A DNA stretch of 64,000 nt, taken from the NCBI GenBank assembly GCA_002687175.1, contig NYZP01000001.1, forward strand, positions 839-64,838. The letters run 5' to 3'. This DNA comes from Parcubacteria group bacterium (GTDB taxonomy: Bacteria > Patescibacteriota > Patescibacteriia > Buchananbacterales > UBA6539). The notes under the pieces are model-generated. The model saw only the letters and a list, made by a program, of their open reading frames with translations. It was not told where the DNA came from and ran no database searches. Position numbers and translations under genes: made by a program. Positions 340-62,245 of the stretch are shown in pieces (position 1 is the first letter of the stretch; each line of letters starts with the position of its first letter).

Positions 340-825
340 ATGAGCAACCGAAAAATTGTTGGTTACATTAGCATGGTACCGTTAATATTACTGCTCCTGG
401 TAACCAACGGGTGTGTGACCGCCCAAAAACCAATTGAATCTGACGATTCGGCCAGAATTATAATTAACGATGTTGAGTGGGGTGTGACCATTGGCCGAAC
501 AAATGGTGTGATGAGAGTGTTAGTTATAAAAGATGACCAAGAGGAAGAGTTCAATTCTAACATGCACCACATATTGATAACGTCCTCTAAAAAAGATGGG
601 CTGACCGACATTGCCTTCCTTGATCAATTGGTTATTAGGACGCCTGATGGATCGATATTTTCCAGAATTGCCGAGTGCCGAGTAAATGATAAAATGTTGG
701 CCATACTAGCCAGAGGTTTTATTATAGTTCACGAAATCTATATAATTCCTCAACAACCACACCAAGAAGAAGACCGCCAACACCAAAACGACCGCTGGCT
801 AATGTGTTTACAGCAACTCAACTGA
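340..825 (+). CDS. hypothetical lipoprotein (signal peptide with lipobox LVTNGC)
   Basis: ORF-track entry of 161 aa. The N-terminal hydrophobic segment ends in a lipobox-like LVTNGC. No recognisable domain. Confidence 0.4.
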   Translation: MSNRKIVGYISMVPLILLLLVTNGCVTAQKPIESDDSARIIINDVEWGVTIGRTNGVMRVLVIKDDQEEEFNSNMHHILITSSKKDGLTDIAFLDQLVIRTPDGSIFSRIAECRVNDKMLAILARGFIIVHEIYIIPQQPHQEEDRQHQNDRWLMCLQQLN

Positions 826-3231: not shown

Positions 3232-3621
3232 ATGGCTAGAATCGCAGGAATTACATTACCTAAAGATAAACGAATAGCAGTAGGTTTAACCTACATTTTT
3301 GGTATAGGCCGTAACGTCTCTACAAATATTTTAAAAAAGGCTGATGTCAGTCCAGACATTAGAGTAAAAGATTTAACAGAAGATCAAACAAATAAACTAC
3401 GAGAAATTATTGAAAAAGATCATAAGGTTGAAGGGGAACTAAAAAGAGAAGTTTTATTGAATGTTAAAAGGCTAAAAGAAATTTCCAGTTACCGTGGTTC
3501 TAGACATTCGAAGAAACTACCAGTACGTGGTCAACGCACTAAAACTAACAATCGAACTGCCCGAGGTAACGTTCGTAAAACCATGGGTTCTGGCCGTAAA
3601 GGGGCTGCACAGAAAACTTAA
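3232..3621 (+). CDS. rpsM: 30S ribosomal protein S13
   Basis: [28 protein letters not shown]... is the S13 signature. Its position between rpmJ and rpsK fits. Confidence 0.9.
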
Positions 3622-3633
3622 AAATTTATACTT

Positions 3634-4107
3634 ATGGGACAAAAAAAAATTACAAACATGTCTGAAACTCCTGATCAGAAAAAAGAAGAAAAAAAGTCCG
3701 CCGAAGGCGGAGAAGTTAAATCTATACCAAAGGCAAAATCAAAGAAAAAAATTAAACGCCAGGTTTCTGCTGGTAGCGCTTATATTCAGGCGACTTATAA
3801 TAATACAATTATTACTTTTACTGATGCTCAGGGTAATGCCTTAGCTCAATGTTCAGCTGGACAAGTTGGTTTTAAGGGACCAAAAAAATCTACCCCTTAT
3901 GCTGCCGGAATTATTGTGGCCCAGGCAGTGGAGAAAGTAAAACCTTACGGACTTAAAGAAGTTAGTGTTTTCGTTAGGGGAGTTGGTGGTGGACGGGAAG
4001 CGGCTATACGGTCTTTAAATGCCAACGGTATTAATGTTTTAGGCATTAAAGATGTAACTCCTATTCCTCATAATGGTTGCCGTCCTAAAAAACCACGCCG
4101 AGTTTAA
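3634..4107 (+). CDS. rpsK: 30S ribosomal protein S11 (with Lys-rich N-terminal extension)
   Basis: The conserved S11 core is present ([34 protein letters not shown]...). The first ~40 aa are K/E-rich. Confidence 0.9.
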
Positions 4108-4122
4108 TTAAAAAAATAATCT

Positions 4123-4725
4123 ATGCAAGTAAAAACCCATAAAGCCTGTAGACGTTACGGAATAAAATTATGCCAATCTGACAAATGTCCGGTTATTCGT
4201 CGTAACTATAAACCAGGAATTCACGGTAATAAGCGAAGGGCCAGACTCACAGAATATGGTACTCAATTAAGAGAAAAACAGATCGCCAAAGCAATTTATG
4301 GGATTATGGAAAAACAATTTAGTAATTATTATAAAAAAGCAATTAACCAGCAAGGAGATACCGGGGAGTTAATACAGCAAATGCTAGAAACTAGATTAGA
4401 CAATGCTGTCTTCCGAGCCGGCTTTGCTAAAACTCGACCACTGGCCAGACAGCTAGTTAGTCATGGAATGTTCTTAGTAAACGGTAAAAAAACAAATATT
4501 CCTTCCTATCAAATCAAAGTAAAAGACGAAATATCAATTAAGCCGGAAAAAATAAAGGCTAAAGTATTTAACGATCTGGAAAAAAAACTGGAAAAATACA
4601 CCGTACCATCTTGGCTAGCCCTTGATCTAAAAAATAATAAGGTAAAAGTGGTTTCCCGACCTTCTGGTAATGAACTGGAGAATACTTTTAATCCACGTTT
4701 AATCGTAGAATTTTATTCAAAATAA
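4123..4725 (+). CDS. rpsD: 30S ribosomal protein S4
   Basis: N-terminal zinc-finger-like C-x..C region and S4 domain (LETRLDNAVFRAGFAKTRPLARQLVSHGMFLVNGKK). Confidence 0.9.
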   Translation: MQVKTHKACRRYGIKLCQSDKCPVIRRNYKPGIHGNKRRARLTEYGTQLREKQIAKAIYGIMEKQFSNYYKKAINQQGDTGELIQQMLETRLDNAVFRAGFAKTRPLARQLVSHGMFLVNGKKTNIPSYQIKVKDEISIKPEKIKAKVFNDLEKKLEKYTVPSWLALDLKNNKVKVVSRPSGNELENTFNPRLIVEFYSK

Positions 4726-4768
4726 TTAGACAAAAACTTTTTAATAATTACAAGTTAAAAACAATTAT

Positions 4769-5638
4769 ATGGAAAACATTTCCTTGCCATCAAAAATTGA
4801 AATTGAAGACACTAAAGAAAAAAATAAGTCTATTATAACAATACAGCCATGTCACCCCGGCTATGGCACTACTCTGGGTAATGCCTTACGTCGAGTATTA
4901 CTTTCTTCTTTACCTGGCGGAGCAGTAATTGCTTTTAAAATTGAAGGAGCCAGTCATGAATTTTCCGGTATTGATAACGTTAAAGAGGATCTGGTGGAAA
5001 TTTCGTTAAATTTAAAACAACTTGGGTTAAATATTTTCACCGATGAACCAGTAAAATTAGAATTAAAAGCAAAAGGTGAAAAAAAAGTTACAGCCAAAGA
5101 TATTAAAACTACCAGTGATGTAGAGGTTATTAATAGCGATCTAGTGATTGCTACTTTAACCAGTAAAACTGCTGAGCTAAACATGGAAATTTTAGTTACT
5201 AAGGGCCGGGGATATGTCCCCTCAGAATCTAGGGAAAAAGAAGATTTGGAAGTGGGGATGATCGTAATCGACTCAATTTTTACCCCAATTAAAAACGTTG
5301 GTTTTCAAATTGAAAATGTCCGAGTGGGAAAAATGACCAACTACGAAAATCTAATTATAACTATTGAGACTGATGGTACTATTACTCCCAAGGAAGCTTT
5401 GAATCAATCAGTAAAAATTTTATTAGATCATTTTAATCAAATTGCTGTTGAGACTAAAGATGGTGCTAAGCCAAAAAAAGTTAAAAAGGAAAATACCAAA
5501 AAAACTGAAGAAGAACCAGAAGAAAAAACTGAAGCCAAAGAAAAAGAAGTCAAAAAAGCTAAAAAGGCTGACAAGGCCCTAGAAGAAGATAAAGAAGACA
5601 CTGAAGAAACTAAAGAAGAAAAACCTAAAAAAGCTTAA
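4769..5638 (+). CDS. rpoA: DNA-directed RNA polymerase alpha subunit, NTD only with K/E-rich low-complexity tail (no alpha-CTD)
   Basis: The alpha NTD is conserved (GYGTTLGNALRRVLLSSLPGGAVIAFKIEGASHEF...). The last ~55 aa are KKVKKENTKKTEEEPEEKTEAKEKEVKK...EEKPKKA, with no helix-hairpin-helix CTD. Confidence 0.85.
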   Translation: MENISLPSKIEIEDTKEKNKSIITIQPCHPGYGTTLGNALRRVLLSSLPGGAVIAFKIEGASHEFSGIDNVKEDLVEISLNLKQLGLNIFTDEPVKLELKAKGEKKVTAKDIKTTSDVEVINSDLVIATLTSKTAELNMEILVTKGRGYVPSESREKEDLEVGMIVIDSIFTPIKNVGFQIENVRVGKMTNYENLIITIETDGTITPKEALNQSVKILLDHFNQIAVETKDGAKPKKVKKENTKKTEEEPEEKTEAKEKEVKKAKKADKALEEDKEDTEETKEEKPKKA

Positions 5639-5646
5639 ATCCAAAT

Positions 5647-5997
5647 ATGCGTCATCAGAAAAAAGGAACAATCTTAGGCCGTAAAAAAGCACCACGGAAA
5701 GCCCTGATGCGTAGTTTAGCTACATCAATTATAATCTACGAAAAAGTTAAAACTACTAAAGCTAAGGCCAAGGCGGTTAAACCAGTAGTCGAGAAATTAG
5801 TTACTACTGCTAAAAAGAATGACTTAACGGCGAGACGTAAATTATTAGAAGTTCTGTACCATAAAAAAGCGGTTAATAAAGCTTTAGAAGTATTAGGACC
5901 ACGTTATAAAAACCGCAAGGGTGGCTACACTAGAATTATTAATTTAGAAAACCGTCAAGGCGATAATGCTGAAATGGTTCAGATTGAATTTGTATAA
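5647..5997 (+). CDS. rplQ: 50S ribosomal protein L17
   Basis: MRHQKKGTILGRKKAPRKALMRSLATS...GGYTRIINLENRQGDNAEMVQIEFV is L17-like. Confidence 0.9.
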   Translation: MRHQKKGTILGRKKAPRKALMRSLATSIIIYEKVKTTKAKAKAVKPVVEKLVTTAKKNDLTARRKLLEVLYHKKAVNKALEVLGPRYKNRKGGYTRIINLENRQGDNAEMVQIEFV

Positions 5998-5999
5998 AT

Positions 6000-6449
6000 A
6001 TGGCCGAACATAAAAAATCTACAACCAAAAATATAGAAAAGGCTATTAAAGATAGTTCCCAGAAAGCGAAGAAAAAAAAGGTATCCAAAAAACCAGTTAT
6101 TGATCGGCAGACTCACAAGATAGATGCCAAGGGAAAAATTTTAGGCCGTTTATCAACCGAGGTGGCTCAAATTTTAAGAGGTAAAAATAAACCAAGTTTT
6201 TTACCACATGTTGATGGTGGTGATTTCGTAGTTATTTCTAATGCTTCACAAATTAAAACAACTGGGAAAAAGATGGAACAAAAAGTTTATTACCATTACT
6301 CTGGTTATCCAGGTGGACTTAAAGAAAAAAAGATGTCAAAAGTTTTCGAGAAGGATCCAGGTGAAATTATTAAACGAGCCGTTTGGAATATGTTACCAAA
6401 GAATAAACTTCGCACAAGTATGATAAAACGTTTAATTGTTAAAAACTAG
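6000..6449 (+). CDS. rplM: 50S ribosomal protein L13
   Basis: KIDAKGKILGRLSTEVAQILRGKNKPSFLPHVDGGDFVVISNASQIKTTGKK...YYHYSGYPGGL is the L13 signature. Confidence 0.9.
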   Translation: MAEHKKSTTKNIEKAIKDSSQKAKKKKVSKKPVIDRQTHKIDAKGKILGRLSTEVAQILRGKNKPSFLPHVDGGDFVVISNASQIKTTGKKMEQKVYYHYSGYPGGLKEKKMSKVFEKDPGEIIKRAVWNMLPKNKLRTSMIKRLIVKN

Positions 6450-6450
6450 C

Positions 6451-6990
6451 ATGCCAATTACTAAAAAAACAGCTACCGCTGAAAAAAAATCGGAACAAAA
6501 GACTATCAAAAAACCAACTGCTAAAAAAACGGTTAAGAAGTCTGAAAAAAAAGTTACCACTAAAGACACTGACGACGACGAACCAAAAAAACGTGTTCGA
6601 CACAGTTATTTGTTTGCTGTTGGACGAAGAAAAAAAGCTGTTGCCCGCGTTAGACTTTTTAAAAAAGGTAATGGTGAAATTTTAGTAAATGATAAGCAAA
6701 TTAAAGAATACTTTCCAACTTTTGAACTTAGAGAAATTGTTGTTGAGCCCCTGGAAAAAATCGGCGCCATCAAAGATTTTAATTTCTCAATTAAAGTCCG
6801 TGGTGGTGGTTCTCGCGGCCAAGCCGAAGCGGTGAGACATGGTATTGCCCGAAGTCTGGTAGTTTATGATAAAGATTTAAGAACAACTTTAAAACCATAC
6901 GGTTTTCTAAAACGTGATCCTCGTCGTAAAGAACGAAAAAAACCTGGTTTAAAACGTGCTCGTCGAGCACCTCAGTGGGCTAAACGATAG
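6451..6990 (+). CDS. rpsI: 30S ribosomal protein S9 with ~50-aa Lys-rich N-terminal extension
   Basis: The S9 core is present (GRRKKAVARVRLFKKGNGEILVN...GGGSRGQAEAVRHGIARSL...KRDPRRKERKK). The ATG at 6451 follows the rplM stop. The track ORF starts at 6436. Confidence 0.85.
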   Translation: MPITKKTATAEKKSEQKTIKKPTAKKTVKKSEKKVTTKDTDDDEPKKRVRHSYLFAVGRRKKAVARVRLFKKGNGEILVNDKQIKEYFPTFELREIVVEPLEKIGAIKDFNFSIKVRGGGSRGQAEAVRHGIARSLVVYDKDLRTTLKPYGFLKRDPRRKERKKPGLKRARRAPQWAKR

Positions 6991-14945: not shown

Positions 14946-15113
14946 ATGATTATATGCAAATCTTGTGGTGGTTCCGAAAGATCAACTAAGAACAGAATGA
15001 ATCATGGGTCTGGATCTATCCAGGTAGTTTGTAAGAAATGTTGCGGCACAGGTGATGGCCTTAGTTGGTTTGACTACATATGTATACGCTTACTTGGCCC
15101 ATACTACAGCTAA
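14946..15113 (+). CDS. small Cys-rich zinc-ribbon-like protein (55 aa)
   Basis: Not in the ORF track (under 60 aa). A perfect SD AGGAGG (14932-14937) lies 8 nt before the ATG. MIICKSCGGSERSTKNRMNHGSGSIQVVCKKCCGTGDGLSWFDYICIRLLGPYYS has C-x2-C ... C-x2-CC. Confidence 0.5.
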   Translation: MIICKSCGGSERSTKNRMNHGSGSIQVVCKKCCGTGDGLSWFDYICIRLLGPYYS

Positions 15114-19962: not shown

Positions 19963-20275
19963 TTTTTATAGCGATAAAGGTTACAATATAAATATCACTG
20001 TTAATCTGAACCAAAGCAAGGAGACCCTCCTATGAGAAATAGAATCTTCAACCTAAAGAAAGGACGGTGATTATCTCTTCTTACAGCTCTGCTGTGAGTC
20101 GTACCTTGTTGTTTAACTGATCTTTCCAACTTCAGTCACTATGACTGTTTGGCACAACAATAAGCATACTCACGAAGGGAGGGAGGGGAACAAGTGTCGA
20201 AAACATCGGAAGTTGAAACACCTCTAGTTGTAGTATAAATTGTGGAACAGACGACCAATGGAGGATACTCAAGCT

Positions 20276-20701
20276 ATGCGTAAGACATTGATGTTTATGT
20301 GTACCTGCGCCGTAGCGCTTGCATTCGTTGCCCTGACGGCTGAGGCAGAGATTATATCTGTCACGAACAAAACCGCTATCGGCGTAACCACAGCGCAGGA
20401 CGCATCGAACCCAGCCCTGACGGCAACCTCGTATTGCAAGACTACGGGAACGATGATTGCAGCTATGCAGACGCAGAGTCCAGCTTCGGACATAGATCTC
20501 TTGCAGCTCGACACGGTCGAGAATACCACGGCAGAACCTCGCGACGCGGTCCAAGAACAGGAGGTCAGTGGCTTCGCCGCGAACATGAGACCGGCGATGG
20601 CGGACAGCTTCTTGCATTCGGCGATGATGATGGCCGAGAACTTGACGGCGAATCCCGCGAACACGGTAAATGAGGTGAGTGGCTTCGCCGCGAACATATG
20701 A
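20276..20701 (+). CDS. small secreted Thr/Ala-rich protein in GC-rich island (141 aa, signal peptide)
   Basis: GGAGGA SD 10 nt upstream. MRKTLMFMCTCAVALAFVALTAEA|E is a signal peptide. About 57% GC against about 33% for the flanks. Contains an internal EVSGFAANM/I repeat. In frame within the track ORF at 20240. Confidence 0.45.
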   Translation: MRKTLMFMCTCAVALAFVALTAEAEIISVTNKTAIGVTTAQDASNPALTATSYCKTTGTMIAAMQTQSPASDIDLLQLDTVENTTAEPRDAVQEQEVSGFAANMRPAMADSFLHSAMMMAENLTANPANTVNEVSGFAANI

Positions 20702-20710
20702 GACCGGCGA
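20564..20710 (+). repeat. two copies of a ~34-bp direct repeat (gt[c/g]agtggcttcgccgcgaacat(at)gagaccggcga) 77 bp apart
   Basis: Read directly: copy 1 at 20564-20597, copy 2 at 20675-20710. The second copy spans the stop codon of the island ORF. Confidence 0.7.
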
Positions 20711-21093
20711 CTATCACTGCCGCCAATCACTTCGCGCTGAACTGGGTGTTCAGCCGTAATGGTAGCGCTTCTCGCGCACTTTCTTCGGCTCCAGTGGCTC
20801 TGTTTCCTGGTTGATGCGTGAATCGTATCACACGAGTCTCTGACTAGCCTAAGTAACATTACAATTTACCCCTTACGCAGACGTTGACCTCACGGTTCGA
20901 CCTGCGTCCTACATTCCCCCAGACTTCAATAACAGGACAGCTTAGCAGCAGCCCAAGTTAAAGATTTCTGAGGGGTCTTTTTTTTATGATTGACTTTTTG
21001 TAAAATAAATGATAGTTTCAAGCTTAGAAACTAAATGATCTTTAACTTTTCATCTTGATTGACATCTCACCGTCAGTGGAGGGAGAATTTTCA

Positions 21094-22856: not shown

Positions 22857-23792
22857 TTTTTTACCAATTAAATCTGTCTGGCCCCTTAAAAAATCTTGAC
22901 CAGACATTTCCTTTTTACCCTCGAGCTGAACTGAAGTAAGCTGAATAGCACCTTGGCTGCACTTTATAGCAAGCCCCTTATTTGGACCTAAAAATAGCTC
23001 TCCGGGAACTAAATTAGGGCTAAAATCACCCTCTAAAAGGCCTAAATTGACGATTTTAAGGCGTTTATTATCAAGATAGCTAAAGATGCCAGGCCAAGGG
23101 TAAAAAGCCTTAAATTGGCTAATTATCTCAGTAGCCTTTTTTTGCCAATTAACCTTTCCGTCATCGCGATCAATCAGCTTTGTCATGCTAACTGCTGACT
23201 CATCTTGAATGGCTGGTTTAATCTCTCCACCTAAATACCGCCATAAAATCTTAACAATCATCTCGGCTCCTAAATTAAATAGCTTGTCACTAAGACTTTG
23301 GGCATTATCATCGTCTTCGATGTTAATTTTTTCTTGAAAGACGATTGGTCCAGCATCCATCAGAGAAGTTAATTTAATAATTGATACCCCTGTTAGCTTA
23401 TCGTTATTTAGTAGCGTTGTTTGAATCGGTGAGGGACCACGATACTTTGGTAATAATGACGGATGAAGATTTAAAATGCCATGTTTTGGTTTAGACAAAA
23501 TTGCCTCTGGGATAATCATGCCATAAGCAACCAGGACTCCCAAGTCAACCTCCAACTCGTTAAAAATGTCACTAAGTTCTTGTTTATTGGCTGGCTGTAA
23601 CACTTCAATACTGTTATCTAAAGCTAATTGTTTAACCGGTGAAGCGATTAATTCCGACGAGCGGTTAACCGGTTTGTCAGGCTGGGTAATAACTAAAACA
23701 GGCTTTAAGTTGTTATCAATCAAAGCCCGTAAAGTAGGAGTTGCTAATTGTGGTGTTCCAAAAAAAACAATTTTTGGATTAAGATTTGTCAT
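22845..23792 (-). CDS. fmt: methionyl-tRNA formyltransferase
   Basis: KIVFFGTPQLATPTLRALIDN... is formyltransferase N-terminal. The gene sits downstream of def and overlaps it. Confidence 0.85.
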   Translation of the reverse strand: MTNLNPKIVFFGTPQLATPTLRALIDNNLKPVLVITQPDKPVNRSSELIASPVKQLALDNSIEVLQPANKQELSDIFNELEVDLGVLVAYGMIIPEAILSKPKHGILNLHPSLLPKYRGPSPIQTTLLNNDKLTGVSIIKLTSLMDAGPIVFQEKINIEDDDNAQSLSDKLFNLGAEMIVKILWRYLGGEIKPAIQDESAVSMTKLIDRDDGKVNWQKKATEIISQFKAFYPWPGIFSYLDNKRLKIVNLGLLEGDFSPNLVPGELFLGPNKGLAIKCSQGAIQLTSVQLEGKKEMSGQDFLRGQTDLIGKKLIS

Positions 23793-24288
23793 TACTTTTT
23801 TTCATTTTAGCCAGTACCTCTTGACCCTTAGTGATTTCTTTTGATCGATCAATAAATAAAATACCATTAAGATGATCCACCTCGTGTAAGATTACTCGGG
23901 CGAACAGTCCGTTGGCAGTAAACTTTATTTTTTTACCATTTTGATCAAAAGCGGAAACTCTAATTTTGATTGCTCGGCGAACCGTACCAAAAACTTCGGG
24001 GATACTTAAACAGCCTTCCTCTTCTTTTTCTTTTTTTAATGACTTCATTAAAATTCTGGGATTAATCAATACTACTGAACCATCATCAGTTCTAATTACG
24101 GTTAAACGAAGACTTTTGCCAATCTGGGGAGCAGCTAAGCCAATACCTTCCTCGGTAATCATTGTTTCTTCCATATCCAAAATCAGCTGCTGAATTTCAT
24201 CACTTTGAATTTCGGCAACTGTTAATTTTTTTCCCTTGATTCGTAAAACCGGATCAGGATAAATTTTTAAGGGTAAAACTTTAGTCAT
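23779..24288 (-). CDS. def: peptide deformylase
   Basis: GIGLAAPQIG, EGCLSIP and HEVDHLNG motifs. Confidence 0.9.
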   Translation of the reverse strand: MTKVLPLKIYPDPVLRIKGKKLTVAEIQSDEIQQLILDMEETMITEEGIGLAAPQIGKSLRLTVIRTDDGSVVLINPRILMKSLKKEKEEEGCLSIPEVFGTVRRAIKIRVSAFDQNGKKIKFTANGLFARVILHEVDHLNGILFIDRSKEITKGQEVLAKMKKSNDKS

Positions 24289-24340: not shown

Positions 24341-24369
24341 TTGACTTTTGACTAATAATTAGCTAAATT
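24341..24369 (+). promoter_or_regulatory. candidate promoter for small-peptide operon (TTGACT-17-TAAATT)
   Basis: Read directly. Divergent from the def promoter. Confidence 0.3.
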
Positions 24370-24430
24370 AGAATTAAGTTGCTCCTTGACTTTTAAAATA
24401 CCCCCTTACAACAAAGAAGGAGACATAGTA

Positions 24431-24601
24431 ATGGATAGCGTATTGATTGACAGCGGGTGGGATCTATTTTTGTTGTTTGCTATTTCATGGGTTGCAACAT
24501 TTCTGCTGGCTTTTGTAGTTATGGCAACCACTCATTTTTTCTTTGGCCCTTGGTTGAGAAGGCTACTGTTCAGAACTACTATCCAAGTAGCACTAAGCTA
24601 A
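24431..24601 (+). CDS. small hydrophobic peptide 1 (56 aa, 1 TM)
   Basis: SD AAGGAG lies 8 nt before the ATG. MDSVLIDSGWDLFLLFAISWVATFLLAFVVMATTHFFFGPWLRRLLFRTTIQVALS. Its stop overlaps the next SD (TAAGGAG). Confidence 0.55.
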   Translation: MDSVLIDSGWDLFLLFAISWVATFLLAFVVMATTHFFFGPWLRRLLFRTTIQVALS

Positions 24602-24611
24602 GGAGAATACA

Positions 24612-24701
24612 ATGGATATGTATTGGTGGGTTGTCATCCTTGGAATGGCTGGATTTATATTCCTTGGTGGTCTTTGGGAAAAATTCAAAAACCGCAAGTA
24701 G
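24612..24701 (+). CDS. small hydrophobic peptide 2 (29 aa, 1 TM)
   Basis: SD AAGGAG lies 6 nt before the ATG. MDMYWWVVILGMAGFIFLGGLWEKFKNRK. Confidence 0.5.
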   Translation: MDMYWWVVILGMAGFIFLGGLWEKFKNRK

Positions 24702-24712
24702 AAAGGATAATC

Positions 24713-24811
24713 ATGAAGTCGCTAGGTGAGATAATCGCCGTAGTATTAGCGGTTGGGTTTGTTACGTTATACGAATTTTTTCTAGCAATTAGGAAAATGA
24801 CAAACACGTAA
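24713..24811 (+). CDS. small hydrophobic peptide 3 (32 aa, 1 TM)
   Basis: GAAAGGA lies 5 nt before the ATG. MKSLGEIIAVVLAVGFVTLYEFFLAIRKMTNT. Confidence 0.45.
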   Translation: MKSLGEIIAVVLAVGFVTLYEFFLAIRKMTNT

Positions 24812-24832
24812 GACCATAGAAGGAGGTGGGTG

Positions 24833-25003
24833 ATGACTTTGTTAGAGTGGGGAATACTGATATTGGCCGCAATGTTTATCTGCAATATTGTGGCTACTGG
24901 CATGTTCGGTCGAATAACTGGTGTAAAAAGTGCTGCTGTTCTACTTTCGGTGGGAGCAATTTATTGCTTAATCTGCCTAGCCAGGGGTGATGAAGAAATA
25001 TAG
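24833..25003 (+). CDS. small hydrophobic peptide 4 (56 aa, 2 TM)
   Basis: SD GAAGGAGGTG precedes the start. MTLLEWGILILAAMFICNIVATGMFGRITGVKSAAVLLSVGAIYCLICLARGDEEI. Confidence 0.55.
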   Translation: MTLLEWGILILAAMFICNIVATGMFGRITGVKSAAVLLSVGAIYCLICLARGDEEI

Positions 25004-25017
25004 AAAGGAGGTGAATA

Positions 25018-25197
25018 ATGCCTTGGTACGGATGGGTGGTAATTGTTTGGTTTTCCATAAACACATGGTTAGCCGTAGATCAAGTAAGGAGTGATAGATT
25101 TAGTCTAAAAGAAACACCAATGGTGTTTTTGTTTGGCATACTGACTGTGGTTTGGTTCGTCATTGATTATATGGTTGAGCAAAGTAGGCGGATGTAA
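25018..25197 (+). CDS. small hydrophobic Trp-rich peptide 5 (59 aa, 2 TM)
   Basis: SD AAAGGAGGTG lies 4-6 nt before the ATG. MPWYGWVVIVWFSINTWLAVDQVRSDRFSLKETPMVFLFGILTVVWFVIDYMVEQSRRM. Confidence 0.55.
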   Translation: MPWYGWVVIVWFSINTWLAVDQVRSDRFSLKETPMVFLFGILTVVWFVIDYMVEQSRRM

Positions 25198-25302
25198 CCT
25201 AACACCGGTTACTGACTAAATTGCTCGTTCATTTCTCTTAGCTCAACACATTTGTGGGGAGCTTTTTTTTATATATTAAGTCTGTTATAATTTTAAAGAA
25301 CT

Positions 25303-25545
25303 ATGGAAGATTTTAAAAAAATTTTGGCCAATAAAAAAAGTATAAAACCGCCAGCTTATCAATGGCAATATTTAGCTTTGCGCATAATTGATGAACTAAA
25401 TATCCCAGCCAAGAAAAGAAACTCAGTCTTTCAAGTCTGTAAAAAATATCCTAAGGATTTTATTGAGAAATGTTTAAACGATACTAAAGAGCTGGCTCAA
25501 GAAGGGGAGCCGTGGCGATATTTTTTTAAATTAGTAAATAAATAA
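25303..25545 (+). CDS. hypothetical protein (80 aa)
   Basis: ORF-track entry with no recognisable motif. Followed by a hairpin at 25549-25568. Confidence 0.3.
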   Translation: MEDFKKILANKKSIKPPAYQWQYLALRIIDELNIPAKKRNSVFQVCKKYPKDFIEKCLNDTKELAQEGEPWRYFFKLVNK

Positions 25546-25586: not shown

Positions 25587-26384
25587 TTACTGGAGTTTAA
25601 AATTACAAACTGTATAACCAACACCAAATGGTCCTTCGTAAGATAGCACTTCTGGTTCAATATTAAGTGATTCAATAATCCCTAATAAAATAATGATTGA
25701 CCGCAAGCCGCACTCGCCGGCTTCTTTTATTAAATTAGGATCCAGTTTTAAAATTCCTTGAATATCTTTCTTTTCAATTAACTCAACAATTTTTTTATCA
25801 AACACTGCACCTTGCTCCGAAAAACCACCGGGAGCATCTTTGGTTAATTTATGAGACAAATCAGCCGAACCAATCACCGCAAACCGTTTATTAATATTTG
25901 ATAGCTGTTGATATAAAAACTGGCCAAACTTAAAATGTTCTTCATAGCCTAAACCAGAGTAGGTGATGGGAATAATTTTAATATCCTTTAAATGCTGGGT
26001 AAAAAAATAAAGAGGGACGGAAAAACCGTAATCAATTTCTGATTCACTGGTTAACACCAAAGGAACCTGCTCGTGCTTTTCGTCACCAGCCCGAATCTGC
26101 TGAATTGACATGTAATCACTTTTAAATTTTAGTTCCAAACCAAAATCACCAAAATCTTTAAAGTTAGCCGAGTAATCAGCATTTAAATTAATATTAAAAG
26201 AATCATCCAAAATTTTACCATGAGGAGAAATGATTACAATGCTTTCCGGTTTGGCAGCATAAAACTCTTGCTCTAATTTCTTCATCGCCTCGTCGGTCTT
26301 GGAAATTTTGGCTAGATTGTCTTTACCAATCTCGGGAATCAAGACTGGCGGATGAGGAGTAATAGCAGAAAAAACTACAGGCAT
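25587..26384 (-). CDS. class III extradiol dioxygenase-like protein (LigB/YgiD family)
   Basis: MPVVFSAITPHPPVLIPE ... ISPHG ... GSADLSHKL are metal-binding His motifs arranged as in LigB-family catalytic subunits. Confidence 0.5.
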   Translation of the reverse strand: MPVVFSAITPHPPVLIPEIGKDNLAKISKTDEAMKKLEQEFYAAKPESIVIISPHGKILDDSFNINLNADYSANFKDFGDFGLELKFKSDYMSIQQIRAGDEKHEQVPLVLTSESEIDYGFSVPLYFFTQHLKDIKIIPITYSGLGYEEHFKFGQFLYQQLSNINKRFAVIGSADLSHKLTKDAPGGFSEQGAVFDKKIVELIEKKDIQGILKLDPNLIKEAGECGLRSIIILLGIIESLNIEPEVLSYEGPFGVGYTVCNFKLQ

Positions 26385-26390
26385 AAAAAT

Positions 26391-27752
26391 TTATTCAATG
26401 TCTTCACCTAGGGGGTGAATGTTAACGGCCAATTGGCTAGTTTCAATTATATTATCCCACTTGTATGCAAAATTGGCAAATGCTGATTCTGATTTAATCC
26501 AACGACGGAAACCATCCGAAATAACGTACACCTTAGAACCATCTTTAATTTTTATTAATTCACCATCTTCGAACTTGATTGGTAGACCAGTCAGGTATTG
26601 ATCAAGCTCTTCCGGACTAACTTGAGTTAACACCTTGCCTTTAAACTTAGCATCCATGATTTCCCGAGAATATATTGGATGTTTAACACCATCCTGAACA
26701 TGAAACACTCCACCACTTTGATCATCTTGAATTAAAGCACCGGTTGGATAGATACTTTCAACCGTAATTTCTACTCCATAGCTATAACCAGCTAAGTCAG
26801 CTTCGGTGACTTCAATGATTTCTTCGGGATTAAAACCAATTGTTCGAAAAACTTCTGGCGAGGAAATGTAACGTAAATCATCATCGACTAAAAGATACGT
26901 TTTGCCATCCGATAAACCTAAAATAGAATAGTTGTAAAATTGTATTGGCGAGCCATCTTCATATTTTTCTAAATCAGTTTGGGAAGTAGTGATAATTTTA
27001 TTAGGGTCAAACCGGGAAATAAAAACTCCCCAAGAAGTTACTAACCGTTTGGCACCATACTGAATCCACCAAACCGCCGGACTGTTATAGGATTTCAATA
27101 AAGAACCATCGGGATAGTCTCGTCCCCAGTAATTCTGCCAAATCTGCCAAAACCGATTGTTACCGTGATAGTGCGGCGTATAATTATAGAGATTGGCTGT
27201 CGCTTGATTAACTGGTTTAATATACCAGTCATCAATTAAAAATGTTTTATCTTTTTGATAAGTCCATTGAAAAGGGTTTTCAAAATATTGCCGAAGTTGC
27301 CAAGTAGCCCCATCAACTTGTTTACCAAAATCTAAAGTATTGGGATGACATGAACCGCTGTCCGGACAACGATAACCCATGGCTCGATCTAGACGCTTTT
27401 GAGTCGGGGAAGGGTCATCAATTAAACTTTGCTCTTTTTGCAAAGTGGCAATAATTACTTTCGGACTGATAAAACTTTCTTGAGCTGCTTGCCAAATTAT
27501 TTCCGAAGCCTTTTTATTGACCCCATTATAATCAGTAGTAATTAAATTAGCCAAACCACTATTACGCTGAATTAAAAATCCCTGAATGTCTTCCAAAGAC
27601 ATTGAAAGTTGATCAGTCATTTCTTCATCGGTAATCACAAAATGAGGATTAAAAAAATAGTCCTGCTCAGCGGCAACGACTGGCAAAAATGTCATCATTA
27701 AAAAACAGACACAACTTAGACTGAAAATTATCAATTTAGTAGTAGATATCAT
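26391..27752 (-). CDS. hypothetical secreted protein (signal peptide, 453 aa)
   Basis: N-terminal signal peptide (FLPVVAAEQDYFF). No recognisable catalytic motif. Confidence 0.45.
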   Translation of the reverse strand: MISTTKLIIFSLSCVCFLMMTFLPVVAAEQDYFFNPHFVITDEEMTDQLSMSLEDIQGFLIQRNSGLANLITTDYNGVNKKASEIIWQAAQESFISPKVIIATLQKEQSLIDDPSPTQKRLDRAMGYRCPDSGSCHPNTLDFGKQVDGATWQLRQYFENPFQWTYQKDKTFLIDDWYIKPVNQATANLYNYTPHYHGNNRFWQIWQNYWGRDYPDGSLLKSYNSPAVWWIQYGAKRLVTSWGVFISRFDPNKIITTSQTDLEKYEDGSPIQFYNYSILGLSDGKTYLLVDDDLRYISSPEVFRTIGFNPEEIIEVTEADLAGYSYGVEITVESIYPTGALIQDDQSGGVFHVQDGVKHPIYSREIMDAKFKGKVLTQVSPEELDQYLTGLPIKFEDGELIKIKDGSKVYVISDGFRRWIKSESAFANFAYKWDNIIETSQLAVNIHPLGEDIE

Positions 27753-27807
27753 AAGTTGATTATAACATTTTAAACTATGGTAGTTAAGTAAAATTTAACA
27801 AAGAAAA

Positions 27808-27838
27808 AAGGCGGTCACACTTTAGGTGAACGCCCATG
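27808..27838 (-). terminator. terminator of GC-rich two-gene cassette
   Basis: The - strand has a GGCGTTCAC...GTGACCGCC hairpin followed by TTTTTT. Confidence 0.45.
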
Positions 27839-27875
27839 ATTATAGATTTTGCCCTTTGAAGAAAAAGGCCTGGAC

Positions 27876-28061
27876 TTATTTGGGGATCCGTACTGATTTT
27901 CCCTGAGCATTTCTGATTTGAGCAAGTGCTTTGTCAGCACACTTCGGGCAATAGCCGTGACTAACACCAGGCCCTAAATCTTCCTTAGCTGCCAGAGACC
28001 ACGTAGCACTACCTTCGGGTCCTCGACGGATTTTTTTACAAACGCAACACTGCACTATCAT
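27876..28061 (-). CDS. small zinc-ribbon protein (61 aa) in GC-rich cassette
   Basis: MIVQCCVCKKIRRGPEGSATWSLAAKEDLGPGVSHGYCPKCADKALAQ... has CCVC...CPKC. About 50% GC. Start overlaps the upstream gene by 4 nt (ATGA). Confidence 0.5.
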   Translation of the reverse strand: MIVQCCVCKKIRRGPEGSATWSLAAKEDLGPGVSHGYCPKCADKALAQIRNAQGKSVRIPK

Positions 28062-28642
28062 GTATTAGTCTCTCCCTCCGATTGGCCGATAATTGAACGG
28101 CAGACCGGACAACAGCTGTGCTCCAAAAGCAAGGTAACAGTCTTGCCATTTAGCTGCTGCCAGGTTCCGTCTTGGCAAACTTTCTGACAACGACCGCAAA
28201 CCGGAACCAACTCTGGCTCTTGACCATCAGCGATCTCAGACGTCAGCTCGTCAACGTGCATTATGAACCAAACCCATGATCCTTGATCTAAGGAAAGTAC
28301 TGGAGTACCTGCCTCAATCTTGTCGGGATCTTCGGCCAGTACAGCACTTGAAAAAACAGCAATCTTCGTCTTGGGATCAAGTGCTTTCATTTGTTGAATC
28401 AACTGACTGCTACTGGCCAAATCGATAACGGTCAGATTAATAACCATTCGAAGCAGTCGCCACTGTTCGAAACAGTCACTTTGATCAACGGCCATCAGCA
28501 CATTAAAATGTGCTTCCGTCAGCTTTGACTCAAGCTGCTTGCGCATCTCTTCATCTTCGTGCAAGACCAACACAGTCCTGGGTTGGTTCCCTTCAAACAT
28601 TGTCCCTAGATCGTCTATTTCTGTGCATTGTTTCATGAGCAA
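28058..28642 (-). CDS. receiver (REC/CheY-like) domain protein with C-terminal Cys-rich zinc-ribbon-like region
   Basis: SD AAAGGAGG lies 8 nt before the ATG. The N-terminal region (VLVLHEDEEM...VIDLASSS...KIAVFSS...K) has the REC acidic pocket pattern. C-terminal VPVCGRCQ...SCCPVC. About 50% GC. Confidence 0.45.
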   Translation of the reverse strand: MLMKQCTEIDDLGTMFEGNQPRTVLVLHEDEEMRKQLESKLTEAHFNVLMAVDQSDCFEQWRLLRMVINLTVIDLASSSQLIQQMKALDPKTKIAVFSSAVLAEDPDKIEAGTPVLSLDQGSWVWFIMHVDELTSEIADGQEPELVPVCGRCQKVCQDGTWQQLNGKTVTLLLEHSCCPVCRSIIGQSEGETNT

Positions 28643-28756
28643 TGCCTCCTTTTTGGTTGTGGGTTAAAGCCACAATTTGAAAGGATAACATTGTTACAAA
28701 ATCTTGATGAGTCTATACAATATTTGTACAGACACCAGATAAAAAGAGCTTAAAAT

Positions 28757-31858: not shown

Positions 31859-33274
31859 ATGTTAAAAACAAAAAATAAAAATGAGGATACCCTGAGATCC
31901 CGGATCAAGTCCGGGATGACATCCCAGGGTGACGAATGGAAAAGAGTATTAGTTAACTTACTAATAATTAGCTTTGTGATGGCTAATTTTTTTGTTGCTC
32001 CCTTGCAAGCTCAGGAAGGTTATGACATCACGGAAATTGAAGAAAATACCGAGTCGGAAAAGACTGCCGAAGAACTGGCCGAAGAACAAAGGTTAAAAGA
32101 TGAAGCTACCAAAAAAAAGAGAGAAGAAGAAATAAAATTGGCTGAATTAAACAAAAACATCAGTAATAAAAGAGATGCTATTAATACTTTACAAAAAGAG
32201 ATTGATGCCTACGCCGTACAAATAAAAGATAAGCAAGGTGAAGCTAGGGGACTGCGCAATCAAATTGCTATTTTGGATAACCAAATTGCCAAAGTAAATT
32301 TGGATATTGAATCAACTGAGCTTAAAATTGACCAAACCAATTTAGAAATCCAAACATTAAATATTGAAATTGAAAATGTTGAAGCCGAAGTAACCATCAA
32401 TAAAGTACGGCTAGCAGAATTTATTCGCTTGATTTATAAAAATGATCAAGTCAGTTATTTGGAAGTTATCTTAACTAATGAATCTTTTTCTGATTTTTTT
32501 GATCAAATAAAATACACCGAGGAAATTCACACCGACATTAAGTCAAGTTTAACCAAATTAAAAAATAGCAAACAAGACCTTGAAACTCAAAGAACTAACT
32601 GGGAAGAAAAAGCTCAGCTGGAAGAGGATTTAAAAAACGAACTCCAACAAAATATTGATGGTTTGGATGAAAAAAATACCGCCCAAGAAATTTTGCTGGT
32701 TCAGGCCAGACTAACTGAACGACAATATCAAAATTTTCAATACCAGCTACAGCTAGAACAACAACAAATTAATTCAGATATAATTAATTTGGAAAAAGAG
32801 GTTCGAGAAAAATTGGAAGCCAGGGAGTTTGCTGAACGATTTAGTGGTTTTGGTCCAGCTCGTTTGGCCTGGCCAGTTAACCCTAGCCGTGGTATTACTG
32901 CTTTTTTCCATGATCCTGATTATCCCTTCCGCTATATTTTTGAACATCCAGCCATAGATATTCGAGCTTATCAGGGTACCACCATTCAAGCACCGGAAAA
33001 TGGTTATGTCGCCAGAGTTAAATTTCGTGGTGACACCAGCTATGCTTACGTAATGTTGATTCATAATGACGGACTATCAACAGTGTTCGGGCATGTCTCA
33101 TCGGTGTTAGTTAATCAAGACGAATATGTTACTAAAGGCCAAACCGTAGCTTTAACTGGTGGTATGCCGGGAACCAACGGAGCTGGTAATTTAAGTACCG
33201 GACCACATCTTCATTTTGAAGTTAGATTCAACGGCATTCCAGTTAACCCGTTAGAATATTTACCACCATTTTAA
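31859..33274 (+). CDS. M23 family metallopeptidase with N-terminal anchor and long coiled-coil (EnvC/LytM-like murein hydrolase)
   Basis: The C-terminal domain has HxxxD and HLHFE motifs (FEHPAIDIRA...GPHLHFEVRFNG). The central ~250 aa are heptad-like with Q/E/K/L repeats. A likelier start is ATG 31917 (MTSQGDEWKRVLVNLLIISFV...), after a GC-rich 5' hairpin. Confidence 0.8.
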   Translation: MLKTKNKNEDTLRSRIKSGMTSQGDEWKRVLVNLLIISFVMANFFVAPLQAQEGYDITEIEENTESEKTAEELAEEQRLKDEATKKKREEEIKLAELNKNISNKRDAINTLQKEIDAYAVQIKDKQGEARGLRNQIAILDNQIAKVNLDIESTELKIDQTNLEIQTLNIEIENVEAEVTINKVRLAEFIRLIYKNDQVSYLEVILTNESFSDFFDQIKYTEEIHTDIKSSLTKLKNSKQDLETQRTNWEEKAQLEEDLKNELQQNIDGLDEKNTAQEILLVQARLTERQYQNFQYQLQLEQQQINSDIINLEKEVREKLEAREFAERFSGFGPARLAWPVNPSRGITAFFHDPDYPFRYIFEHPAIDIRAYQGTTIQAPENGYVARVKFRGDTSYAYVMLIHNDGLSTVFGHVSSVLVNQDEYVTKGQTVALTGGMPGTNGAGNLSTGPHLHFEVRFNGIPVNPLEYLPPF

Positions 33275-40287: not shown

Positions 40288-40440
40288 ATGTCGCGTAAAG
40301 AACTGCAGGACGCAGCAACTAAGTTGCTGAGGGAAGACGGATCCCGGTGGGATGGCAGAAAAAAATCTGCCGTAAAATCCGGTCAGACCAGCTTCGAAAT
40401 GCGAATGCAAGTCGAAGCGGTTGGCGCTGGTAAACACTAG
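40288..40440 (+). CDS. small hydrophilic protein (50 aa) in GC-rich cassette
   Basis: SD AAGGAGGTG lies 6 nt before the ATG. MSRKELQDAATKLLREDGSRWDGRKKSAVKSGQTSFEMRMQVEAVGAGKH. About 53% GC. Not in the ORF track (under 60 aa). Confidence 0.45.
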   Translation: MSRKELQDAATKLLREDGSRWDGRKKSAVKSGQTSFEMRMQVEAVGAGKH

Positions 40441-62111: not shown

Positions 62112-62192
62112 GGTGGATCTCCTTTGGCTGTTGTTTATAAATGTCAATGTTCTTTACCTCAACTTATCTTAACTAATATTTTTTGTCAAAGA

Positions 62193-62215: not shown

Positions 62216-62245
62216 GCGGCCTGTGAATTGGACTGACCAACTAAC

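What the first reader, a model, noticed from the sequence alone, without database searches (positions are those of the whole stretch)
24341..25270. Operon of five tandem mini-ORFs (29-59 aa) encoding hydrophobic, Trp-rich single/double-TM peptides, each with a perfect Shine-Dalgarno
Five back-to-back small ORFs are present at 24431-24601, 24612-24701, 24713-24811, 24833-25003 and 25018-25197. Each is preceded at 4-8 nt by AAGGAG, GAAGGAGGTG or AAAGGAGGTG. The first stop overlaps the next SD (TAAGGAG). Core genes in this window almost never carry an SD, so five consecutive optimal SDs cannot be chance. All five products are predicted membrane peptides: MDMYWWVVILGMAGFIFLGG..., MPWYGWVVIVWFSINTWLAV..., and similar. 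GC is about 42% against about 33% for the flanks, and the operon has its own promoter and a downstream hairpin plus T8. The architecture recalls phage holin/antiholin or spanin modules, small-protein toxin or bacteriocin-immunity clusters, or an uncharacterised small-membrane-protein complex. Most of these ORFs fall below standard gene-caller cutoffs.
Basis: seen in the sequence. Interest (0 to 1): 0.78.

Follow-up and report, generated by a model that had tools for sequence, protein, structure and literature searches.

The report
Five-gene operon of tiny membrane proteins
A marine Parcubacteria genome carries a real five-gene operon of very small membrane proteins with strong ribosome-binding sites that its core genes lack; related genomes hold zero to four such genes at the same spot, and their function is unknown.

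Summary
Five back-to-back small ORFs (56, 29, 32, 56 and 59 aa) lie at 24431-25197 (+). Four have strong Shine-Dalgarno (SD) sites and one a moderate one, with a promoter-like site upstream and a hairpin plus T8 terminator downstream. Only 6 of 62 long ORFs in the window have an SD, and the ribosomal-protein genes have none.

The DNA is 100% identical in four independent metagenome assemblies, so it is not a broken gene. All five products are predicted 1- or 2-helix membrane proteins.

New here: relatives (Def 56-64% identical; Buchananbacteria-like Patescibacteria) keep the same neighbourhood. At this spot they carry 4, 2, 2, 1, at least 1, at least 1, 0, 0 or 0 SD-led small membrane ORFs. 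The last cistron forms a weakly conserved family, and ORF4 and ORF5 share a duplicated start region. The clusters have raised GC3 in 6 of 7 genomes.

No homologue, Pfam, PHROG, PADLOC, Rfam or fold match identifies a function. No lysin, transporter, integrase or SD-sequestering structure is present.

Best reading: a fast-evolving accessory operon of co-translated small integral membrane proteins. The holin, spanin, bacteriocin and type I toxin readings are not supported. It adds orphan families to the known class of small membrane proteins.

The parts
24341..24369 (+). Promoter-like site TTGACT-17 nt-TAAATT for the small-ORF operon. It is divergent from the def promoter.
   Evidence: 9 of 12 matches. 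By my reading of the sequences, relatives have an equivalent TTGAC(A/T)-17/18-TAAATT/TAAAAT site upstream of their clusters.
24431..24601 (+). ORF1, 56 aa. One predicted TM helix, acidic N-terminus, basic C-tail (WLRRLLFR). SD AAGGAG at 24417-24422.
   Evidence: JGI called a 71-aa version from TTG 24386; the ATG with the SD is the likelier start. Marginal Pfam DUF2798 hit (23.7 bits against a cut-off of 23.5).
24612..24701 (+). ORF2, 29 aa. Single TM, predicted N-out/C-in from the EKFKNRK tail. SD AAGGAG at 24600-24605 overlaps the ORF1 stop codon.
   Evidence: Its N-terminus MDMYWWVVI resembles the ORF5 N-terminus MPWYGWVVI.
24713..24811 (+). ORF3, 32 aa. Single TM. Weaker SD AAGGA at 24703-24707.
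   Evidence: Not called by any public annotation.
24833..25003 (+). ORF4, 56 aa. Two-helix TM hairpin with a basic loop (GRITGVK) and an acidic C-terminus. SD AAGGAGGTG at 24820-24828.
   Evidence: AlphaFold gives helices 3-29 and 33-54, pLDDT 76. The same protein is found in TARA, JGI, Logan and ENA assemblies.
25018..25197 (+). ORF5, 59 aa. Trp-rich two-helix TM hairpin. SD AAGGAGGTGA at 25005-25014. It is the last cistron and the only one with recognisable positional orthologues.
   Evidence: AlphaFold gives helices 3-26 and 33-58, pLDDT 80. Similar to L029_4 and L032_2 (shuffle z 4.5-5.1); those two and L037_1 align with it, with an invariant Asn in TM1 and Gly in TM2. A 32-nt repeat with the ORF4 start region. 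NCBI accession MAF13294.1.
25240..25271 (+). Intrinsic-terminator-like hairpin (AGCUC...GAGCU) followed by U8. It closes the operon before the separately promoted 80-aa ORF.
   Evidence: By my reading of the sequences, equivalent hairpin plus T-run sites follow the clusters in L029, L025 and L032.

Best explanation
**What it is.** It is a real, single-transcript operon in a marine Parcubacteria chromosome. It encodes five very small integral membrane proteins: three single-pass, predicted N-out/C-in, and two helical hairpins. It occupies a lineage-specific variable spot between def/fmt and a conserved 80-aa gene.

**Shown here.**
- The five cistrons are 10-21 nt apart.
- Each has its own accessible SD.
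- Promoter-like and terminator-like sites bracket them.
- Relatives carry 0-4 analogous SD-led small membrane ORFs at the same place.
- The last cistron is a weakly conserved 2-TM family, and ORF4 and ORF5 share a duplicated start region.

**Inferred mechanism.**
- The mRNA is translated by canonical SD-dependent initiation and re-initiation. The rest of the genome uses leaderless or A-rich SD-independent starts.
- This would deliver the five peptides together to the membrane. There the paralogous helices would pack into homo- or hetero-oligomers, helped by the conserved polar Asn in TM1 and by small-residue motifs.
- Because the set is dispensable, copy-number variable and fast-evolving, its role is most likely an accessory, strain-specific envelope function. 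That could be modulating or protecting the cell membrane or a larger membrane machine during host, phage or competitor contact. A housekeeping or lytic role is less likely.
For: **Coding and co-expression.** ORFs and SDs. Enrichment against background. T-rich codon position 2. Promoter and terminator. Open, unstructured initiation regions. No overall RNA structure (z = -0.95) and no Rfam family.

**Not an artefact.** Identical in four assemblies.

**Membrane products.**

**Conservation of the locus.** The synteny is WecG/Memo/80-99-aa ORF/[small ORFs]/def/fmt/Wzy. The counts of small ORFs at this spot are:

| Locus | Small ORFs |
|---|---|
| L029 | 4 |
| L025 | 2 |
| L032 | 2 |
| L037 | 1 |
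| L031 | at least 1 |
| L027 | at least 1 |
| L033 | 0 |
| L034 | 0 |
| L039 | 0 |

Sources. In relatives, 10 of 11 small ORFs have an SD against 3 of 53 other genes (p = 2e-8).

**Families and duplication.**

**Accessory signature.** GC3 is raised in 6 of 7 genomes. The other SD-led genes in the window also have higher GC and are mostly envelope proteins. Ribosomal-protein genes lack an SD.

**General knowledge.** Polar Asn in TM helices drives helix association.
Against: - No expression data exist.
- No dN/dS could be computed. The only extra copies are identical, and relatives are too diverged.
- Homology between clusters is weak. It rests on shuffle z-scores, which ignore the TM-loop-TM block structure.
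- No database homologue exists for ORF5 in 5.8 billion clustered proteins or 1.84 billion representatives.
- Oligomerisation and any envelope-protective role are inference only.
- Whether this organism's 16S rRNA carries a usable anti-SD is unknown, because there is no rRNA in the window.
Confidence: 0.6

Rival explanations
1. It is a membrane-damaging module: a holin/antiholin-like lysis cassette, a type I-like small toxin array, or multi-peptide bacteriocins with small immunity proteins. The peptides would form pores in the cell's own membrane or a neighbour's.
For: - Small hydrophobic 1-2 TM peptides with charged tails.
- Possible dual starts: MDM in ORF2, and GTG-ATG in ORF4.
- Rapid turnover and variable copy number, as in arms-race loci.
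- Non-significant fold resemblance to uncharacterised phage hairpin proteins.
Against: - No PHROG, Pfam, NCBIfam or PADLOC hit.
- No endolysin, transporter, immunity or processing gene nearby; the neighbours are def, fmt and Memo/LigB.
- No lipobox or double-glycine leader.
- Net charges run from -1 to +2, not strongly cationic.
- The SDs are open rather than sequestered.
- No convincing antisense promoter.
- Five strongly translated toxins without a visible brake would be self-defeating.
Confidence: 0.15
2. It is foreign DNA. It would be a remnant of a mobile element or phage from an SD-using, higher-GC gene pool, for example an inovirus-like block of small coat proteins or a lysis block. It would have been dropped repeatedly into an insertion hot spot, with no current role for the host.
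For: - Raised GC and GC3 compared with the flanks in 6 of 7 genomes.
- SD use is confined to such higher-GC accessory genes.
- Presence or absence varies at a fixed position.
- From general knowledge, the sizes recall the Ff phage g7p/g9p/g8p block.
Against: - No integrase, replication, morphogenesis or att-like repeats flank it.
- No hit in phage genomes or viral contigs. The single viral hit is an off-frame artefact.
- The island is only about 0.9 kb, with its own promoter and terminator conserved in relatives.
- The last cistron appears orthologous across genomes whose Def proteins are each only 56-60% identical to the window's. That points to long residence or selection.
Confidence: 0.12
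3. The ORFs are young proto-genes or non-functional ORFs in a fast-evolving intergenic region. They may be transcribed but have no selected protein function.
For: - They are orphans in 5.8 billion and 1.84 billion protein sets.
- Sequences are barely alignable between relatives.
- The cluster is absent in three relatives.
Against: - Fifteen of 16 small ORFs in seven genomes keep a correctly spaced SD, although the lineage otherwise lacks SDs.
- The ORFs tile the transcript with no gaps and are uniformly TM-like.
- A family with invariant Asn and Gly is shared by four genomes.
- Terminators are retained.
Confidence: 0.08
4. The transcript acts as an RNA. For example, an SD-rich RNA could titrate ribosomes or an RNA-binding protein, and the ORFs would be incidental.
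For: Five GGA/SD motifs within about 770 nt.
Against: - No Rfam match.
- No excess structure (z = -0.95).
- Each SD is followed at 3-8 nt by an ATG and a long open frame with T-rich second codon positions.
Confidence: 0.03

Closest known systems
Bacterial small membrane proteins (for example AcrZ, KdpF, CydX/CydS, MgrB, MgtS; reviewed in PMC12648545)
   Same: Proteins of 29-59 aa that are essentially one or two TM helices. They are often missed by annotation, lineage-restricted, and more conserved in structure than in sequence.
   Different: Characterised examples are usually single genes. They sit next to or inside the operon of the large membrane protein they bind. Here five are alone in one operon, with no partner gene adjacent, and the set varies from 0 to 5 among relatives.
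Type I toxin-antitoxin small hydrophobic toxins (Hok, TisB, Ibs and Ldr arrays; PMC12648545)
   Same: Hydrophobic peptides under 60 aa with one TM helix, sometimes in tandem arrays, and fast-evolving.
   Different: Type I toxins are monocistronic. Each has an antisense RNA and a sequestered SD. Here the ORFs are polycistronic with open SDs, and no antisense signal was found. Two of the products are 2-TM hairpins.
Phage holin/antiholin/spanin lysis cassettes
   Same: Clustered small TM proteins with charged tails and overlapping or closely spaced genes.
   Different: There is no endolysin, no o-spanin lipobox, no PHROG hit and no prophage context.
Multi-peptide small-ORF operons: PSM-alpha, aureocin A70, garvicin KS (named from my own knowledge)
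   Same: Three to four tandem tiny ORFs, each with its own SD, on one transcript.
   Different: Those peptides are amphipathic, usually cationic and exported, and are accompanied by transporter or immunity genes. These are TM-length hydrophobic, near neutral, and have no such neighbours.
SD-blind translation in Bacteroidia, with a lone SD on rpsU (PMC7797042, PMC9976891, PMC13000453)
   Same: A genome whose core genes, including ribosomal-protein genes, lack SDs, while a few genes keep strong SDs.
   Different: It is a different phylum. Here SDs mark accessory, higher-GC and mostly envelope genes rather than a ribosomal autoregulator. Whether the anti-SD is sequestered in this organism is untested.

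Membership tests
Small membrane proteins (generic class) | Product of about 100 aa or less that consists mainly of one or more hydrophobic TM helices | tested here: met
   Sizes are 29-59 aa. Each product has a hydropathy window above 1.6, and there are 1-2 TM segments per product. Models for ORF4 and ORF5 are helical hairpins.
Small membrane proteins (generic class) | Actually translated and inserted in the membrane | not testable with these tools
   This needs Ribo-seq, proteomics or membrane fractionation. The indirect support is the conserved SDs.
Phage holin/antiholin | Sequence membership in a holin family | tested here: not met
   No PHROG hit with E below 0.1, and the weak ones are families of unknown function. 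There is no Pfam holin family hit.
Phage holin/antiholin | Genetic linkage to an endolysin, or spanin, in a phage or prophage context | tested here: not met
   The neighbours are def, fmt, an 80-aa conserved ORF and Memo/LigB. Phage and viral-contig searches were negative.
Type I toxin-antitoxin | Toxin SD or start sequestered in mRNA structure, with a cis or divergent antisense RNA | tested here: not met
   The initiation regions fold no better than shuffles (z from -0.8 to +1.3). Only weak 9-of-12 promoter-like sites lie on the minus strand. An antisense RNA cannot be excluded without RNA-seq.
Leaderless or double-glycine bacteriocin cluster | Cationic amphipathic peptide, or a GG leader, together with a dedicated transporter or immunity gene | tested here: not met
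   Net charges run from -1 to +2, with TM-length hydrophobic cores. There is no GG leader and no ABC transporter or immunity gene nearby.
Pfam DUF2798 | Score above the Pfam gathering threshold, with support from relatives | tested here: inconclusive
   ORF1 scores 23.7 bits against a cut-off of 23.5 (E = 5e-5). None of the 10 relatives' peptides matches the family. The hit is probably compositional.
Inovirus small coat-protein block (g7p/g9p/g8p) | Linkage to the pI/Zot morphogenesis ATPase, replication and ssDNA-binding genes | tested here: not met
   No such genes lie within the syntenic neighbourhood in the window or in any relative.

The most novel reading that the evidence does not exclude
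This Patescibacteria lineage runs two translation-initiation regimes. Core genes, including ribosomal-protein genes, would use leaderless or A-rich SD-independent starts. A separate set of higher-GC accessory envelope genes would be kept on strong SDs, so that they can be translated as a conditional regulon, for example by a ribosome subpopulation with an exposed anti-SD. This penta-cistronic small-membrane-protein operon would belong to that set. The fast-evolving hairpin peptides would then form strain-specific membrane assemblies used at the interface with a host cell or against phage.
Probability: 0.12. Interest if true: 0.8.

Novelty: new member of a known kind. Interest (0 to 1): 0.5.

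Why it matters
Small membrane proteins are under-annotated. Here NCBI annotates only one of the five and nobody annotates ORF3. Almost nothing is known about such proteins in the Candidate Phyla Radiation, whose tiny cells depend on envelope contacts with hosts.

This locus gives a concrete, comparably placed set of such genes in about ten genomes. It also provides a clear natural contrast between SD-led accessory genes and SD-less core genes, which could be used to ask how these organisms choose start sites. The functional payoff is uncertain until expression and localisation are measured.

Tried and rejected
- **Concatenated ORF1-4 search.** Nothing was returned, not even the self proteins, so it is uninformative rather than negative.
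- **ORF5 homologue searches.** The word-index search found only itself. Full HMMER against 1.84 billion representatives found itself plus multi-stretch hits to long repetitive proteins, which I rejected as compositional.
- **Def-anchored collection scans.** Scans of genome contigs and metagenome contigs gave only distant Def proteins (45% identity or less). Relatives had to be reached through the protein search and contig look-ups instead.
- **Viral contigs and phage genomes.** The viral-contig scans for ORFs 5 and 4 and the phage tblastn for ORF5 gave nothing. The only hit, from the ORF1 scan, is L015: an 18-residue match in an off-frame ORF inside a 153-aa gene, which I rejected.
- **Strain comparison for dN/dS.** Extra copies are 100% identical or differ only outside the cluster.
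- **Protein and RNA families.** PHROG, NCBIfam and PADLOC gave nothing significant. Pfam gave only the marginal DUF2798 hit for ORF1. Rfam gave no match within the cluster at gathering or E-value thresholds.
- **Fold search.** Foldseek of the ORF5 model against PDB and BFVD gave no match with E of 0.001 or less.
- **Flanking repeats.** No flanking direct or inverted repeats suggest an insertion.
- **SD sequestration in the ORF1 leader.** An upstream CUCCUU could pair with the SD in the long fold. It is not supported locally (z = -0.03), and by my reading of the relatives' leaders it is not conserved.
- **Integron-cassette and leader-peptide/attenuator readings.** I rejected both: there are no attC-like spacers, and the downstream gene has its own -10 box in all genomes.
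Full report
**1. What is in the sequence.**

Between the divergently oriented def gene (23779-24288, minus strand) and an 80-aa ORF (25303-25545, plus strand) lie five plus-strand ORFs.

| ORF | Coordinates | Length | SD and position |
|---|---|---|---|
| 1 | 24431-24601 | 56 aa | AAGGAG, 24417-24422 |
| 2 | 24612-24701 | 29 aa | AAGGAG, 24600-24605, overlapping the ORF1 stop |
| 3 | 24713-24811 | 32 aa | AAGGA, 24703-24707 |
| 4 | 24833-25003 | 56 aa | AAGGAGGTG, 24820-24828 |
| 5 | 25018-25197 | 59 aa | AAGGAGGTGA, 25005-25014 |

- All five start with ATG, and the gaps between them are 10, 11, 21 and 14 nt.
- Four SDs are strong and one (ORF3) is moderate.
- A TTGACT-17-TAAATT promoter-like site lies at 24341-24369.
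- A hairpin followed by U8 lies at 25240-25271.

**2. Is it more than chance?**

- Among 62 non-overlapping long ORFs in the window, only 6 have an SD match of 5 nt or more within 20 nt of the start. The comparison with 5 of 5 here gives Fisher p = 5e-5.
- The ribosomal-protein and rpoA genes at 3232-6990 have no SD at all.
- Counting SD + ATG + open frame of at least 25 aa gives 13 combinations in the region. The mean is 0.13 and the maximum 4 in 2000 shuffles.

**3. Not an artefact, a broken gene or an RNA.**

- The ORFs use frames 2, 0, 2, 2 and 1, and each has its own SD.
- The same DNA is 100% identical in contigs from four independent assemblies: JGI, Logan, ENA and TARA.
- Rfam finds nothing in the cluster at either threshold.
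- The 898-nt transcript folds no better than shuffles (z = -0.95).
- Codon position 2 is 47% T. That matches the native polytopic Wzy protein and compares with 33% in other long genes.

**4. The products.**

- Hydropathy and charge distribution predict three single-pass peptides (ORFs 1-3). They have acidic or short N-termini and basic C-tails, which suggests N-out/C-in.
- ORFs 4 and 5 are predicted to be two-helix hairpins.
- Single-sequence AlphaFold models of ORF4 and ORF5 are helical hairpins with pLDDT 76 and 80.
- Trp makes up 5.2% overall but is concentrated in ORFs 1, 2 and 5.

**5. Organism and annotation status.**

- ORF5 is MAF13294.1, 'hypothetical protein CMI53_00165', from a marine Parcubacteria-group MAG.
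- Identical copies come from TARA_037 mesopelagic 0.1-0.22 um samples and from other marine samples.
- NCBI annotates only ORF5.
- JGI called ORF1 (as 71 aa from a TTG start), ORF2, ORF4 and ORF5.
- ORF3 is in no collection.

**6. Comparative genomics.**

Direct searches with the peptides found no relatives. I therefore anchored on Def. Its nearest relatives are 56-70% identical and belong to Patescibacteria and Candidatus Buchananbacteria MAGs.

Their contigs show conserved synteny:

(radical SAM or WecG) - 445-aa ORF - Memo/LigB - 86-99-aa homologue of the window's 80-aa ORF - [variable spot] - (45-aa ORF) - def - fmt - ... Wzy.

The variable spot holds small hydrophobic ORFs on the same strand as in the window:

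| Locus | Small ORFs at the variable spot |
|---|---|
| L029 | 4 (39, 63, 78 and 64 aa) |
| L025 | 2 (63 and 47 aa) |
| L032 | 2 (60 and 69 aa) |
| L037 | 1 (64 aa) |
| L031 | at least 1 (81 aa) |
| L027 | at least 1 (53 aa; the contig ends there) |
| L033, L034-36, L039-41 | 0 |

- Ten of these 11 ORFs have an SD of 5 nt or more, against 3 of 53 other genes in the same loci (p = 2e-8).
- Those three exceptions are themselves non-conserved accessory ORFs.
- By my reading of the sequences, each cluster is followed by a hairpin plus T-run and preceded by a TTGAC(A/T)-17/18-TAAATT-like promoter.
- The locus type, the SDs and the hydrophobic character are therefore conserved. ORF number and primary sequence are not.

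**7. Relationships among the peptides.**

- With composition-preserving shuffles, 7 of 120 pairs reach p of 0.01 or less, against about 1 expected.
- The consistent signals are L025_1 with L029_2 (z = 8.1) and a triangle of last cistrons: ORF5, L029_4 and L032_2 (z = 4.5-5.1).
- Aligned with L037_1, these last cistrons share an invariant Asn near the end of TM1, a '[KS]E' loop motif and an invariant Gly in TM2.
- Within the window, a 32-nt repeat (72% identity) links the SD and first codons of ORF4 and ORF5. ORF2 and ORF5 share the motif M-x-x-Y-x-W-V-V-I.
- This points to growth of the array by tandem duplication and divergence.
- These similarities are weak, and the shuffle null ignores the TM-loop-TM layout. 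Still, ORF5 does not score against other 2-TM peptides from the same loci, which argues for some specificity.

**8. Composition and the SD dichotomy.**

- GC3 of the small ORFs exceeds that of their own flanking genes in 6 of 7 genomes. Examples are the window at 0.41 against 0.29, L029 at 0.57 against 0.41 and L027 at 0.59 against 0.37. The p-values run from 5e-7 to 0.012.
- The higher GC is therefore not just an amino-acid effect.
- In the window, every other SD-led gene except sodA also has raised GC and GC3, and most have N-terminal signal, TM or lipobox sequences. They are:
  - a lipoprotein-like ORF at 340-825;
  - a 1234-aa M23/LamG/CARDB surface protein;
  - two TM proteins at 61704-63334;
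  - a secreted Ala/Thr/Asn-rich ORF at 20276-20701 (SD read by eye; N-terminus from the translation).
- By contrast, 18 of 60 genes have a -10 box ending 3-13 nt before the ATG, against 8% of random positions. This suggests leaderless or short-leader mRNAs for core genes.
- The five-ORF operon thus belongs to a distinct class of SD-led, higher-GC, accessory and mostly envelope genes.
- Whether this reflects repeated acquisition from an SD-using gene pool or selection tied to SD-dependent translation remains unexplained.

**9. Searches for function.**

- Pfam gives only a marginal DUF2798 hit for ORF1 (23.7 bits against a cut-off of 23.5). It is not shared by any relative's peptide.
- PHROGs, NCBIfam and PADLOC give nothing significant.
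- Foldseek against PDB and BFVD gives no match with E of 0.001 or less.
- The initiation regions are unstructured.
- No flanking repeats, integrase, lysin, transporter or immunity gene is present.

**10. Best explanation and rivals.**

*Shown:* this is a promoter-to-terminator operon of five small integral membrane proteins with accessible SDs. It sits in a lineage-specific, copy-number-variable island and has one weakly conserved core member.

*Inferred:* the peptides are made together by SD-dependent initiation and re-initiation on a compact mRNA. They are co-inserted and associate through their helices; a conserved polar Asn in a TM helix is a classic association driver. They would serve an accessory, strain-specific envelope role.

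I put about 0.9 on 'real small-membrane-protein operon' and about 0.35 on the oligomeric accessory-envelope mechanism. The combined confidence is 0.6.

| Rival | Confidence | Main weakness |
|---|---|---|
| Pore-forming toxin, holin or bacteriocin module | 0.15 | No lysin, transporter, immunity gene or brake; open SDs |
| Mobile-element or phage remnant | 0.12 | GC3 and SD signatures fit, but no mobile genes, no viral hits, and the last cistron is conserved |
| Unselected proto-genes | 0.08 | 15 of 16 SDs are retained across seven genomes |
| RNA-level function | 0.03 | No Rfam match, no excess structure, clear coding signature |

**11. Comparison with known systems.**

- It works most like the generic class of bacterial small membrane proteins (PMC12648545).
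- It differs in being a stand-alone penta-cistronic set with no adjacent partner gene.
- It fails the tested defining features of holin cassettes, type I TA systems, bacteriocin clusters and inovirus coat blocks (see the membership table).
- The genome-wide SD pattern recalls SD-blind Bacteroidia, where only rpsU keeps an SD (PMC7797042, PMC9976891, PMC13000453). Here, however, the SD-led genes are accessory envelope genes, and the state of the anti-SD is unknown.

**12. Verdict.**

- The specific lysis, toxin and bacteriocin interpretations are not supported.
- The feature adds orphan families, in an unusual operon form, to the known class of small membrane proteins.
- It also flags a possibly interesting split between SD-led accessory genes and SD-less core genes in a CPR lineage.
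- Interest is moderate (0.5). Function and expression remain untested.

Noticed in passing
window 20000-20970: A GC-rich patch (51-57% against about 35%) lies between a GT2 gene and Wzy_C. It holds an SD-led ORF (20276-20701, +) encoding a signal peptide plus an Ala/Thr/Asn-rich protein, with an internal direct repeat of about 33 nt. Relatives have analogous GC-rich, T/A/N-rich secreted ORFs at the same spot (L025 7131-7649, L029 7508-7969, L032 6976-7536), two of them SD-led. No Pfam or Rfam hit.
   Followed up: partly
window 27800-28700: A second GC-rich patch (46-50%) holds an SD-led ORF at 28058-28636 (-), 192 aa, Cys-rich at its C-terminus, with no Pfam hit. It sits where some relatives have a radical SAM gene next to the 445-aa/Memo pair.
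   Followed up: partly
window 14946-15113 (+) and 40288-40440 (+): Two further intergenic small ORFs have very strong SDs (AAAGGAGGG and GAAGGAGGTG). One is a 55-aa Cys-rich (CxxC...CxxCC) peptide. The other is a 50-aa hydrophilic peptide with GC 0.52.
   Followed up: no
window, whole (for example 3232-6990, 23779-24288, 26391-27752, 31859-33274): The genome is SD-poor. Ribosomal-protein genes S13, S11, S4, L17, L13 and S9, and rpoA, have no SD. Eighteen of 60 genes have a TATAAT-like box ending 3-13 nt before the ATG, against 8% at random positions. This suggests widespread leaderless or short-leader mRNAs.
   Followed up: partly
window 340-825, 46179-49883, 61704-62111, 62246-63334: The few long genes with strong SDs all have raised GC and GC3 (GC 0.42-0.44; GC3 0.36-0.46) and N-terminal signal, TM or lipobox sequences. 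They are a lipoprotein-like ORF, a 1234-aa M23/LamG/CARDB surface protein, a TM protein and a TM HEAT-repeat protein. SD use appears to mark accessory envelope genes.
   Followed up: partly
window 25303-25545 (+): An 80-aa basic protein (MAF13295.1) has its own -10 box 11 nt before the ATG. It is conserved (86-99 aa, motif ...KPPAYxWQxLAL...KRNSVFxVCKK...TKEL...GExW[RK]YFFK) directly downstream of the variable spot in all relatives where that flank was sequenced. No Pfam, PHROG or NCBIfam hit; function unknown.
   Followed up: partly
L025 3825-3962, L029 3828-3965, L032 3823-3960, L033 3843-3980, L034 3825-3962 (relatives): A conserved 45-aa ORF (M.K.FDS.IEELK..L.LQ.EAY...) lies just upstream of def in most relatives, and a GGGGATAA motif lies next to the cluster promoter. 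Both are absent from the window, where def and ORF1 are only 142 nt apart.
   Followed up: no
window 25587-27752 (-): A Memo/LigB-family gene (AmmeMemoRadiSam-type) is paired with a conserved 453-aa ORF that has no Pfam hit. Several relatives add a radical SAM gene upstream, which the window lacks.
   Followed up: no
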